From the human T2T-CHM13v2.0 reference genome, Homo sapiens: 64,000 nucleotides of DNA. The DNA is taken from NCBI RefSeq assembly GCF_009914755.1, contig NC_060928.1. One strand, given 5' to 3'. Shown in pieces: positions 10,266 through 16,214 of this stretch. Numbering within the stretch: position 1 is the stretch's first letter; every line of letters starts with the position of its first letter. The notes beneath the pieces are model-generated. The model worked only from the letters and a program-made list of their open reading frames with translations, searched no databases and was not told where the DNA came from. Both the position numbers and the translations under genes were made by a program.

Positions 10266-11710
10266 TCTACTTTTTAGCTATTAAAAATAAAACTGCAATG
10301 AACATTCATGTATAGATTTTCTGTGTGAATATAACTTTTCATTTATCTGCAATAAATGCCCAAGAGTGAAATTTCTGGTTTATATAGTAAGTACACATTT
10401 TATTTCATAAGAAATTGCTTAACCTTTTAAGAGTGACTGCACCATTTTACATTCCCATTCATACATATGAACAATGTATGAGTGAGTGATCCAGTTTCTC
10501 TGCATCCTTGCCAGTGTTTAGTCTTGTCAGTAATTTTTATTTTAGCTATTCTCATAGGTGTGTAGTGGTATTTCATTGTAGTTTTAATTTGGATTTTCCT
10601 AATGGCTAATCATGATGAACATTTTTTCATATACTTATTTATCATCTATATATCCTCCTTGGTGAAATGCCAGTTTATATCTCTTGCCCATTTTCTAGTT
10701 GGATTGTCAATTTTTTTTCTTTTACAATTGAGTGTTCAGAATTCTTTGTATATTCTGGATACTATTCTTTTGTCAGACATGTGGTTTGCAAATATTTTCT
10801 TCCAGTCTGTAGCTTGTATTTTCATCTTATTTTTATGGTCTTTTACAAGACTGACGTTTTTAATTTTGATGAGACCTCATTAACAAGTTTTCCTTTTTGG
10901 ATTGTCCTTTTGGTGTAAAGTCTAAAAACTTCTTGCTTGACCCTGGATCCTGAAGATTTTTTCATGCTTTTTTTTGACAAGTTTTATAGTTTAACTTTTA
11001 AATATAAGAGCATTATATACTTTCAATTAATTTTTTTATAGGTGTGAGGTTTAGGTTAGGTTCATTTTTCTGCCTATCAATTGCTCCAGCACCATTTGTT
11101 GAAAAGACTTTTTTCACCTTTGAATTATTTTTGTACCATTGTAAAAAAAAATTTGTGTGGATCTGGGTTCTCTGTTCTGTTCTGTTGATCTACATGTTTA
11201 TCCAACCGTTAATACTGCACTGTCATTCTTAACTGTAGCTATATGGAAAGCCTCAATGTCAGAGTGTTCCCTCCCACTTTTTTCCTTGTCATGATTGAGA
11301 ACAAGCTTGGCTGTGTGTGCCAAAACCTTGCTGGGACTTTGATAGGAATTACATTAAGCCTATAGATCAATTTGGGGAAGAATTGACATCTTTATTATGT
11401 GAGCCTTCAAATCCATGAATATGGTATATCTCTTCATTTATTTAGTACTTTTTTGATTTTTTACATTAGTGTTTTGTAATTTTCAGCATATAATTTTTAC
11501 AGGTTTGTTCAGTGTATACTTTAGTATTTCATTTAGTATTTCATTTCTTTGGAATGATTGGAAATAGTATTCTGTTTTAAATTTTGATTTTCTTCTTTTC
11601 AATGTTAATTCATTAACAGAAATATACACTTTGTGTGTGTGTGTGTTGATCTTGTATTCAGCAACCTTGCTAAATGAATTTTTTTTTTCTGTAAAGCTTT
11701 TGGGGTTTGC

Positions 11711-12261
11711 TTTTTTTTAAAAAAAATTTATTTTTTAAAAGTTAATATGTGCATTTCAGGAAACTGAAAAACACAAGAGGCAAAGAACAAAGTCCTCTAT
11801 GATAACAAGTGGTTTACAGTTTGACATGTCCTTCTATGTCCTGTGTGTATGTAGACAAAATATCCTATTTTATGGGATTGAGATCATACAGTATGTATCA
11901 TGCTTTTTCACACATCATGAATATTTACCAATTTGAAATCCCAAAGCTATATGAGTATTTCGATAGCCAAAAATACACTACACCAACTCACCAACTACAC
12001 CTATTTTAGAAAAAAATGTAATCCTGCCTTCCCTGGGCCAAAATTTCATGGATGACAAAAATGACAACATGCCTCTAGATAAAAGCGTTGGCAGAGTTCT
12101 GATTTAAATACTGCATTCCCTTAATGCTCAATTTAAAATGAGACATAAACTGTAATCCAAGAACTTTGGGATGCTGAGGCAGGTGGCTTAACTTGAGGCC
12201 AGGAGTTTGAGACCAACCTGGCCAACATGGAGAAACCCTGTTTCGATTAAAAAAAAAAAAA

Positions 12262-12314
<53 letters not shown>

Positions 12315-12750
12315 GAAACATACAGCAACAGAATACATTAAGTATAATGTTTCTAAGAGAATTCATTAGCAGATCTGTACCATTAAAATATTAGCAAGGT
12401 GTGTTGTCATTGAATTACTTAACCTATTCCCATAGCACAGCCAAAAGAATTGCACATACATCAATGGCTATTGTCAAAATGTAAATATATATACATCTGT
12501 ATACATTTCTCCCTTTATACGTCCTTGTGCCCTTCTGCTGCCAACCTAGTGAGCAAGTCTTGCTATACACTGCTCAGAGGTGGTTTAACAATTTCATGTC
12601 CAAGGTGCATCTTTTCTATCAATTATAACAAAAATATATTTATAAATTGCTAATTCACTAGCTCTACTTTTTAACCTACATTGTCACCTCAGGACATTTA
12701 TAAAGCTTAGATGTTGCAAAATAATGAGCTTTGTCCACAATAAACACAGG
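11711..12750 (-). pseudogene. NORAD: Processed retrocopy of lncRNA NORAD, non-inverted 3'-terminal segment
   Basis: Minus strand reads CCTTGGACATGAAATTGTTAAACCACCTCTGAGCAGTGTATAG...TTTAAATTGAGCATTAAGGGAATGCAG...ATGCACATATTAACTTTTAAAAAATAAA, matching my recollection of the NORAD 3' end. AATAAA at 11727-32, A-tract at 11711-18. The symbol names the parent gene, not this locus. Confidence 0.85.
12150..12311 (+). mobile_element. 5'-truncated Alu left monomer (FLAM_C/AluJ-like) with tail turned into (TA)n(TG)n(TA)n, inserted in the retrocopy
   Basis: ctgtaatcc...ggccaggagtttgagacc...A-run; TSD aatgagacata (12137-47) / aatgaaacata (12312-22). Confidence 0.85.
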
Positions 12751-13837
12751 TTTACTCAACACTACTTTGTATACAGTGGACAAACTGAAGTCCTTATTTA
12801 AAACATTTAGTCTTTCCAGATGTTTAGAAGTGCACAAAATTGTTAAAAATAGAGGTAGTGAATAACACACTTTGCAGATATCCTTTTGATTCACATGAAA
12901 TGTTGTCTTTTAAAAATTAATCAAACCACTTCTCTGATCAGTACACATATTTATGCTGGTTCAAGGAGGAAGGAGGAGTAGAAAGTGCAAAGAGTTTTAT
13001 ACCAGTGTGTTTATGGCAAGGCACAAGTGACCATTGGCCCTTATGTCTGCATTTCCTTTTACAGTGCTGTGTATATAGCGTATATAAGCAAACAAACAAG
13101 TCCTAATTTACAACATCTAGTCTTTCTAGATGTTAGAGATGTTGTCAGTGTGTGACAAAAGGAGAGTCAGTAAAGTAATACATGGGAGTACACTTTGTGT
13201 TAAAATTCACAGGGAAGACGGTTATTAAAAACACAGAAGTGTAATTGTTAAAATCCCCTCTAAGTACTACAGATGCTTATACCTGTCCACTGGGTTGATA
13301 AAGTAGAAAGGGGAAGGGTTTTAGGCCATAATGTTTATTTTTAGAAAACACTTTCAAATTATAACCTGTGTTATATGTATGCATCATTTATTCAATGCTA
13401 CTGTGTATAGAGTGGAAAACTTATGTCCTATTTGAAACATCTAGTATTTCTAGGAAGTATGCAGGGAGAAGGGTTCTATGCCCGTCATTTACACTAGTTC
13501 AGTTGGTCTAATCATCACTCTATATGTGGATTTTTGTTAATATTGTTGAGTATTAAAGGATAAACAAGTCCTAATGCTCAAAGTATGTTAAAAGTAGAGT
13601 AGTAAAACAATCCCTTTATGAATGTTCTTTTGTTAATTTTTAGTGAGAACTGTCTTCTGGGAGTGACCTTTGTTAATCCACTTTTTGGAGCTAGGCATAG
13701 TCCTATACTTAGTCACTGGGATGGTGGAAGAGGGACAAGAGGAAGGGTAAAGGGAAGGGCTATTTGCTAGTATCTCTGTATCTAGAAGATAGTTTTAGAT
13801 GGTAGCCATAGGTCTATATGAGCATTTTTAGTAGAGT
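12751..13837 (+). pseudogene. NORAD: Processed retrocopy of NORAD, inverted upstream segment with repeat units
   Basis: Recurring TGTATAnA...GTCCT...AACATCTAGTCTTTCTAGATGTT module (gtcct anchors at 12790, 13100, 13425, 13568); GGATGGTGGAAGAGGGACAAGAGGAAGGG...TTTGCTAGTATCTC matches recalled NORAD sequence. Confidence 0.85.
13070..13077 (+). promoter_or_regulatory. PUMILIO response element (UGUANAUA) retained in the NORAD retrocopy
   Basis: TGTATATA followed by a degenerate second site CGTATATA (13079-86) and a perfect 9-bp hairpin at 13112-13134; relevant only if transcribed. Confidence 0.55.
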
Positions 13838-14266
13838 TCTTGAGATTTTCTATGTAAACAGTTAAGTCATGTGCAAATTGAGACAGTTTTTTCTTTTATT
13901 CATTATCTTGCCTTACCGTGGTGGCTAGAATTTGCAGTATTATGTTGAATAAGAGTGGTGAAACAGAGATCCTTCCTTTGTACCTGACCTTAGGGAAAAA
14001 ACATTCAATCTTTCACCATTAAGTATGACCTAGCATTTTTTAGATTCTCTTTATCAAGTTGAGAGAAAATCCCTCTATTCTTGACTTGGCTGGCAGTTTT
14101 TATGATTAATGGGTGTTGGATTCTATCAAATGCCTTTTCTGCATATAATAACGTTATATAATTATATGATCTTTTGAATTTACCTTGTTGTAACCAGGTT
14201 ACAGTGATTAATTTTTGAATGTTGAACCAGCCTCGCATACCTGGAATAAATCCCGTTTGGTGATAG

Positions 14267-14803
<537 letters not shown>

Positions 14804-16214
14804 TAATTCTTCCTATACATTTTCAGATTTACTTTGCTGATAATTTGTTTTAATGTGTAAGTTCACAAGAGATATTGATCAATAACTTTTTTTTTATGTT
14901 TTTTGGTCTGCTTTTTGTACATAGTAACACTGTCCTTGTAAAATGAGTTGGGAAGTGTTCTCTCTTCTGTCTTCAGGAAGAGATTGTATAAAATTGGTGT
15001 TAATTTTTCTCTAAATGTTTGACAGAATCTCTAGTGAAACCATCTGGAATAAAAGTTACTTTCTTGGGAGCTTTTTAATTACAAATTCAATTTATTATCT
15101 AATGTTTATAAAACTAGTCAGATTATGTATTTCATGTTGGTTGAGTTTTAGTAATTTGTGGTTTTCAATAAATTAGTTCATTTCTTCTAAGTAGTCAAAT
15201 GTATGAGCATAAAATCATTCTTGGCATTCCCATATTATTCATTTAATAGTTGCAAGATTTGTAATAACATCACTCATTTCATTTTTAATATTGGTAATTT
15301 GAATCTTATCTTTTTTATTTTGTCAGTCTTGCTACAGGTTTATCAATTTTTTGATCCTTTTTAAAGAACCAGCTCTTAGTTTTATTGATTACCTCTAGTT
15401 TTACCTATTTTCAATTATATTTATTTCTGCTCTTATCTATAAAATTTCTTTTCCACTGTTTGTTTCAGCTTTACATTGCTCTTTCTTTTCTAGTTTTTTT
15501 GAAGTGAAACTTAGATTATTAAATTGTGACCTTTGTTTGTTTTCAATGTACGTATTTAGTGCTATAAGTAGCTCCCTCAGTACTGGCTTAGCTGCATCTC
15601 ACATACTTTGATATGTTGTATTTTCATTTTTATTCAATGCTATGCATTAAAAAATTTCCTTTGACAATTTCTCTTTGACCGATGAATCATTTAGAGGTAT
15701 GTTGTTTAATTTCTGCATGTTTGGAGATTTTCCTGTTGACCTTCATTTTTTCATCTTTTGTGTGATTCCATTATGGTCAAAGGTGACATTCCATATTACT
15801 TAAATTCTTTTGAATTTGTTGTGGTTTGTTTTATGGCCCAGGAGATGTGGTCTGAGTCAAAGGTCCAAAAGAGCATAATGGATGCATTAGGGATGTGTGT
15901 GTGGGTGAGGTGTGCGTGTGAAGGTGGTGGGAGGTGGGGAGGTTAGCATGTTTTAGAAAAGGGAATCAAGCTGTCAAAGATGATTCAGGGACAGACAGTT
16001 AAGTGAAAGTCACATACTCAAAATCACAGCTAGTAAGTAGTTGAGATTAAAAGGCAGCCTTTCTCACTCTACATGCATTGCTTTTTTCTCATTGCCTCTC
16101 CAAATATATGAACAATAAGTAAACAGAGATATGAAGCATGATTAAAAAATTAAAATATGTGGTAAAATTTAAAAGAAATTTAATTAAATTTAGCAAGGCT
16201 ACTGTTTTGTCCAA

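What the first reader, a model, noticed from the sequence alone, without database searches (positions are those of the whole stretch)
12690..13845. Twin-priming 5' inversion, with internal priming by target microhomology
The minus segment begins (at 12750) with CCTGTGTTTATTGTGGACAAAG. The plus segment ends (13837) with GAGCATTTTTAGTAGAGT. In NORAD as I recall it these are contiguous (...TTTTAGTAAAGTG|CCTGTGTT...). This is the geometry of L1 ORF2p twin priming. The end tttttagtagagt also resembles the host L1 target sequence (tttttgtagatt), which suggests the second target strand primed at this U-rich site. Consequence: any transcript through the locus contains both sense and antisense NORAD sequence.
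Basis: partly seen in the sequence, partly recalled or inferred. Interest (0 to 1): 0.7.

Follow-up and report, generated by a model that had tools for sequence, protein, structure and literature searches.

The report
Twin-primed inverted NORAD retrocopy
This is an old, partial copy of the human RNA gene NORAD with its front part flipped, likely pasted in by the LINE-1 "twin priming" route; it is a clean but ordinary example of a well-described event, with no sign of function.

Summary
Confirmed. The window holds a decayed processed copy of the 3' part of a chromosome-20 locus that matches published features of NORAD. 11712-12750 (minus strand) runs from parent position p6058 to the poly(A) signal. 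12751-13837 (plus strand) is the upstream part p4514-6056, inverted, with an internal deletion. The two blocks abut in the parent with a 1-nt gap. The insert sits in an old L1 ORF2 and is flanked by a probable 21-27-nt target-site duplication (15 of 21 identical). The left duplicate, which RNA cannot have templated, matches the parent at the inversion point at 10 of 13 bases (4 of 5,038 parent positions do as well). That supports internal priming by the second target strand. The copy belongs to the old group that predates NORAD's Alu. None of 20 other fetched copies is inverted. 5'-inverted processed pseudogenes are well described (3 of 23, PMC12016303). The sense-plus-antisense consequence holds only for the unspliced LINC02173 intron, and the blocks form no long hairpin. 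The empty site could not be checked in an outgroup. New member of a known kind; low interest.

The parts
10485..11690 (-). Host L1 ORF2 remnant, left flank (about 12 nt shorter than paralog L041 just left of the duplication)
   Evidence: Collinear with paralog L041 at 67% over 1.3 kb; alignment with 24 paralogs
11691..11711 (.). Left copy of probable target-site duplication (core 21 nt; extends to about 11685 through a T-run)
   Evidence: 15 of 21 identical to 13831-13851, 5 of 6 mismatches transitions; same L1 columns
11712..11718 (-). Very short poly(A) remnant; up to 4 A may be templated by the NORAD 3' end
   Evidence: Sequence and 3'-end comparison with other copies
11727..11732 (-). NORAD AATAAA poly(A) signal
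   Evidence: Aligned to parent
11715..12147 (-). Non-inverted block, 3' part (p6892 to about p6469)
   Evidence: 84.5% BLAST identity
12150..12311 (+). Later Alu left arm plus A/TA/TG microsatellite tail, with its own 11-nt duplication (12137-12147 / 12312-12322)
   Evidence: Matches Alu arms; flanks read
12312..12750 (-). Non-inverted block, 5' part (about p6480 to p6058)
   Evidence: 80.5% BLAST identity; start fixed
12750..12750 (.). Inversion junction; one base (G) shared by both blocks, no inserted flank
12751..13453 (+). Inverted block, part 1 (p4514-p5202), about two NORAD repeat units
   Evidence: 81% BLAST identity; 310/324-nt spaced repeat D6
13454..13837 (+). Inverted block, part 2 (p5686-p6056), after an internal deletion with AG microhomology
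   Evidence: 83.7% BLAST identity; junction
13825..13837 (+). Microhomology between target DNA and NORAD p6044-6056: inferred internal priming site
   Evidence: Right copy 12 of 13, left copy 10 of 13 matches
13831..13851 (.). Right copy of probable target-site duplication; first nick would be at TTCT/AT after 13851
13838..15390 (-). Host L1 ORF2 remnant, right flank (reverse transcriptase region)
   Evidence: About 70% identity to many paralogs; weak Pfam RVT_1 hits E 0.034 and 0.037, below cut-off

Best explanation
This is a decayed processed copy of the 3' part of NORAD whose 5' part is inverted, most likely made in one step by L1 ORF2p twin priming. Shown: two oppositely oriented blocks that abut in the parent with a 1-nt gap, a poly(A) signal and short A-run at one end, host L1 sequence present twice around the insert, and a match between that host sequence and the parent at the inversion point. 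Inferred: ORF2p nicked the plus strand after 13851-equivalent (TTCT/AT) and primed on the poly(A) tail. A second nick 21-27 nt away freed the minus-strand 3' end, which paired over 7-13 nt with NORAD p6044-6056 and primed a second cDNA to p4514. The first cDNA stopped at p6058, next to the bound primer. The two cDNAs were joined through about 1 nt of homology. The event predates the Alu in NORAD. A roughly 197-nt internal deletion (timing unknown) and an Alu left arm followed or accompanied it. The copy is most likely neutral.
For: 1-nt gap between blocks; 46% of 287 5'-inverted L1s have the ends within 20 bp (PMC12016303). Outer inversion breakpoint coincides with the 5' end of the insert and no flank lies at the inner junction. 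Duplication 15 of 21; only 7 of 63,979 window 21-mers reach this, two being the copies themselves; 0 of 16 other copies' 3' ends and not the parent reach it, maximum 13. Both copies carry G at 11696/13836 where 22 of 24 paralog rows have T, and G is the NORAD base. Left copy matches p6044-6056 at 10 of 13, reached at 4 of 5,038 parent positions; first 7 nt match 6 of 7, reached at 5 of 5,038. All three segments diverge equally from the parent (0.124-0.131), as one event predicts. Only 28 of 605 5'-inverted L1s lack such microhomology (PMC2912911).
Against: No outgroup empty site was seen. The two duplicates are no more alike (15 of 21) than the right copy is to unrelated paralogs (9-17 of 21). 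The left copy's L1-profile score (8.0) is below all 20 gap-free paralog rows (9.9-26.4) and one control 3' end reaches 7.2. Part of the left copy could instead be the NORAD end plus decayed poly(A); the alignment score favours the duplication (51 vs 29) but that is not a formal test. The inferred nick TTCT/AT is not the canonical TTTT/AA. 21-27 nt exceeds the 14-16-bp peak, and 7-13 nt exceeds the usual 2-5-bp microhomology (PMC2912911). Much of the 13-nt match is a T-run: 3 of 24 paralogs also reach 10 of 13. The poly(A) tail is almost gone.
Confidence: 0.9

Rival explanations
1. An ordinary 5'-truncated NORAD copy was inserted first, and p4514-6056 was inverted later by a genomic rearrangement between the short inverted match in the flank and p6044-6056.
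For: Block order alone is identical under both models. The same short match could guide a DNA-level inversion. The inner junction reads AGTAAA on the minus strand, as the parent does at p6049-6054, where other copies predict AATAAA.
Against: A reciprocal inversion would keep a second copy of the 13-nt match at the inner junction; about 14 nt are missing there, so an extra deletion is needed. Twin priming needs one substitution. The outer break falls at the insertion's own 5' end.
Confidence: 0.05
2. Same twin-primed geometry, but no duplication: the left 21-mer is the NORAD end plus decayed poly(A), the target lost 12-30 nt, and the terminal 13 nt on the right are NORAD-derived with only a short T-run as microhomology.
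For: Other copies end in AAAACC(TG) before poly(A), resembling part of the left 21-mer. The left flank is about 12 nt short against L041. Low profile score of the left copy.
Against: 15 of 21 identity on the diagonal that abuts the T-run; the distal 14 nt alone give 10 of 14 (0.16% of window positions). No control 3' end reaches 15 of 21. Score 51 vs 29.
Confidence: 0.1
3. The inversion arose by a single reverse transcriptase switching template or folding back, with end-joining repair, and not by a second target primer.
For: The copy also has an internal deletion with 2-3 nt microhomology, showing that jumps or repair acted on it.
Against: It does not predict the target-RNA match at the outer junction or the near-zero gap. 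Fold-back would duplicate sequence, and none is duplicated.
Confidence: 0.04

Closest known systems
5'-inverted L1 insertions and processed pseudogenes made by twin priming (Ostertag and Kazazian 2001, seen only as cited in PMC2912911, PMC12016303, PMC12350158)
   Same: Inverted 5' block plus non-inverted 3' block, ends adjacent in the template, microhomology at the 5' junction, little at the inversion junction, target-site duplication, poly(A). Block lengths (about 1.09 kb and 0.85 kb) are near the germline medians of 751 and 571 bp.
   Different: Template is a lncRNA. Duplication (21-27 nt) and microhomology (7-13 nt) are at the long end. Nick site is non-canonical. There is an extra internal deletion and a nested Alu arm.
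NORAD pseudogene family, including HCG11 (PMC4947167, passages)
   Same: One of at least 38 loci besides the parent that match the NORAD 3' end (40 of 58 candidates scored). It groups with the old, Alu-less copies.
   Different: Only copy with an inverted block among 21 fetched. Partial, about 87% identical per site, 1 of 4 UGUANAUA sites kept in the sense block. HCG11 is near full length and expressed.

Membership tests
NORAD processed pseudogene | Derived from NORAD | tested here: met
   Parent L016 has a 5.3-kb unit with 17 overlapping UGURUAUA matches (paper: 17, stated as non-overlapping), internal repeats, and four near-full-length copies at 88-95% (paper: four above 90%). The name rests on this match and on recalled chromosome position; no call labelled the locus.
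NORAD processed pseudogene | Ends at the transcript 3' end with poly(A) signal and tail | tested here: met
   AATAAA at 11732-11727; homology stops where 17 other copies stop; tail only 7-8 A
NORAD processed pseudogene | Loss of introns | not testable with these tools
   Parent unit is collinear with its full-length copies, so there is no intron to lose
Twin-primed 5'-inverted insertion | Inverted 5' block, non-inverted poly(A)-bearing 3' block | tested here: met
Twin-primed 5'-inverted insertion | Start of inverted and end of non-inverted cDNA adjacent in template | tested here: met
   p6056 vs p6058
Twin-primed 5'-inverted insertion | Target-site duplication | tested here: met
   15 of 21, controls; decayed, so probable, not certain
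Twin-primed 5'-inverted insertion | Microhomology between target 3' end and internal RNA | tested here: met
   Left copy 10 of 13 (12 of 13 with G-U), 4 of 5,038 positions; depends on the duplication being real
Twin-primed 5'-inverted insertion | Microhomology at the inversion junction | tested here: inconclusive
   1 nt, or about 6 nt if a 3-nt loss is allowed
Twin-primed 5'-inverted insertion | L1 endonuclease site TTTT/AA at first nick | tested here: inconclusive
   Inferred TTCT/AT; paralogs read TTTTCT then A. Degenerate, on the expected strand.
Twin-primed 5'-inverted insertion | Inverted from the start (no uninverted ortholog; empty site in outgroup) | not testable with these tools
   No related genomes are held for this window

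The most novel reading that the evidence does not exclude
The LINC02173 pre-mRNA, or RNA released from its intron 2, carries about 0.85 kb of antisense NORAD (about 88% identical, longest exact run 31 nt) that pairs with the NORAD 3' end and dampens it, making a twin-priming inversion the birth of a natural antisense regulator of a conserved lncRNA.
Probability: 0.03. Interest if true: 0.45.

Novelty: new member of a known kind. Interest (0 to 1): 0.15.

Why it matters
It is a tidy fossil of twin priming on a lncRNA template. The first cDNA ends one base from the inferred primer-binding site, and the primer's sequence can be read independently from the other duplicate. It dates such an event to the old burst of NORAD copies. 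It is also a possible source of strand-confused read mapping for NORAD. It changes no model: 5' inversion is reported in 13% of polymorphic processed pseudogenes (3 of 23, PMC12016303).

Tried and rejected
Splicing as the cause of the internal deletion: the modern parent reads GT..AG at p5203-5685, but 8 old copies have A at p5203, there is no polypyrimidine tract, and no other examined junction shares it. G-quadruplex stalling at that break: the G-tract is weaker in old copies; left as speculation. Shared ancestry with L017 or L061 through an Alu at the same place: L017 has a full-length Alu with a different duplication; L061 has another Alu. A breakpoint hotspot at p5510-5860 across copies: partly BLAST mis-assignment among repeat units, so not claimed. 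Coding potential: 3 ORFs of 50-87 aa, none followed up. Rfam: only an Alu-derived SRP match elsewhere in the window. No further NORAD piece elsewhere in the window. The first microhomology count used parent positions that were 2 nt off and was redone. The original twin-priming paper was not held. Earlier scan findings were not available.

Full report
Observation. A search of the genome with 11700-13850 returned 167 matches from 40 scored of 1,867 candidates, among them a chromosome-20 locus. I fetched it as L016 with 19 other copies. 'p' positions are on its reverse complement.

Identity of the parent. L016 holds a 5.3-kb unit (about p1559-6900) with 17 overlapping UGURUAUA and 15 UGUANAUA matches on one strand and no UGURUAUA on the other. 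It has internal repeats, and four copies match it over 4 kb or more at 88-95%. PMC4947167 (passages) gives 17 such motifs (stated as non-overlapping), 12 units of about 300 nt, and four pseudogenes above 90%. No call names the locus; NORAD is concluded from this match and from recalled map position.

Anatomy. Minus block: 12750 to 11715 equals p6058 to about p6892, ending in AATAAA (11732-11727) and 7-8 A. It is split by an Alu left arm with its own 11-nt duplication. Plus block: 12751-13453 equals p4514-5202 and 13454-13837 equals p5686-6056. One parent base (p6057) is missing between the blocks. At the inner junction one G is shared and no flank is inserted. Both flanks are one old minus-strand L1 ORF2, collinear with paralog L041, with weak RVT_1 hits below cut-off in 2 of 9 frames.

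Target-site duplication. In an alignment with 24 paralogous L1 fragments, 11691-11711 and 13831-13851 fall in the same columns. They share 15 of 21 bases, and 5 of 6 differences are transitions. Seven of 63,979 window 21-mers reach 15, two being the copies; 0 of 16 other NORAD copies' 3' ends do (maximum 13). The distal 14 nt alone give 10 of 14 next to the T-run (0.16% of window positions, 5 of 1,197 in the local L1). Both copies have G where 22 of 24 paralog rows have T. Against this: unrelated paralogs match the right copy at 9-17 of 21; the left copy scores below all 20 gap-free paralog rows, with one control at 7.2 against 8.0; the inferred nick is TTCT/AT; the left flank is about 12 nt short. 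A no-duplication model scored 29 against 51 (informal). I rate the duplication probable.

Microhomology. The right 13-mer matches p6044-6056 at 12 of 13, but could be RNA-derived. The left duplicate cannot be. It matches at 10 of 13 (12 with G-U pairs), a level reached at 4 of 5,038 parent positions, and its first 7 nt match 6 of 7 (5 of 5,038). Three of 24 paralogs also reach 10 of 13, since a T-run supplies much of the match. The window lengths were chosen after seeing the data. The non-inverted block begins 1 nt past this site, as expected if the first cDNA stopped at the bound primer (inference).

Age. All three segments differ from the parent at 0.124-0.131 of sites. The copy is 0.10 from the majority of copies and has the old base at 21 of 25 informative sites that separate old copies from the parent lineage; 28 were examined, 3 were missing or other. 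In the tree it lies in the poorly resolved old group, outside the well-supported group of the parent and its younger copies; rows with 900 or fewer sites (L019, L033) were left out. Seven old copies lack the parent's Alu, so the true internal deletion is about 197 nt. With a recalled neutral rate near 2.2e-9 per site per year this is roughly 45 million years; the rate comes from no call.

Rarity and function. Of 21 fetched copies only this one has NORAD matches on both strands. In one search, 1 of 39 loci shows both strands over the last 1.19 kb, though inversions further 5' would be missed there. The insert lies in intron 2 of LINC02173 (hub table), so only pre-mRNA carries it. Best pairings between the blocks are 30-86 nt at 69-80%. 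The sense block keeps 1 of 4 UGUANAUA sites. No expression or conservation data were available.

Mechanism. Twin priming (0.9) explains the adjacent ends, the outer break at the insertion end, and the target-RNA match with one substitution. A later inversion (0.05) needs an extra deletion of about 14 nt at the inner junction. The no-duplication variant (0.1) overlaps with twin priming and only weakens the microhomology claim.

Comparison with print. PMC2912911 (parts 1-3 of 5 read): 30.9% of 2,068 recent L1s are 5'-inverted, 28 of 605 lack 5' microhomology, about 70% have 2-5 bp, duplications peak at 14-16 bp, and inverted mRNA retrocopies are known. PMC12016303 (passages and section 8): 3 of 23 processed pseudogenes inverted; 46% of 287 inverted L1s have ends within 20 bp. 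PMC12350158 (passages) and PMC6407921 (passages) confirm twin priming as a standard class and the many NORAD pseudogenes. Ostertag and Kazazian 2001 was not held. Searches for NORAD with LINC02173 and LINC02173 alone returned 0 papers; listings showed no title on this locus. Supplements were not read, and pseudogene tables there or in subscription journals may list it.

Verdict. The observation and the interpretation hold. It is a new member of a known kind. Interest 0.15.

Noticed in passing
window 12137-12322; L017:5755-6016; L061:652-952: Three NORAD copies carry apparently independent antisense Alu insertions within about 20 nt (p6463-6483), next to a TTTT/AA site: a local insertion hotspot.
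   Followed up: partly
L027:2743-2840: A roughly 100-nt piece of the NORAD 3' region (p6663-6761, 88%) sits inside the copy near p4840-4870, in the same orientation: a templated insertion or template switch.
   Followed up: partly
L026, L030, L031, L035: Several old NORAD copies have internal deletions of 0.6-3 kb; some apparent breakpoints are mis-assigned repeat units, and none examined shares the window's junction.
   Followed up: partly
L016 p5222-5507 (G000:C20, about 37768279-37767994): The Alu inside NORAD is present in 3 young copies (L018, L019, L022) and absent from 7 older ones, so the copies record when it entered the gene.
   Followed up: partly
L022 (G000:C6:26389500-26397000): Near-full-length copy at 90% over 4.7 kb, probably HCG11 (6p22.2 per the abstract of PMC13373682); it has a second Alu at p6130-6146.
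   Followed up: no
window 13850-13900: The insertion falls just after the host L1 reverse transcriptase motif read as FAHD in frame translation; the match to the catalytic motif is recalled.
   Followed up: no
window 14271-14530: Pyrimidine microsatellite expanded from an Alu tail inside the host L1.
   Followed up: no
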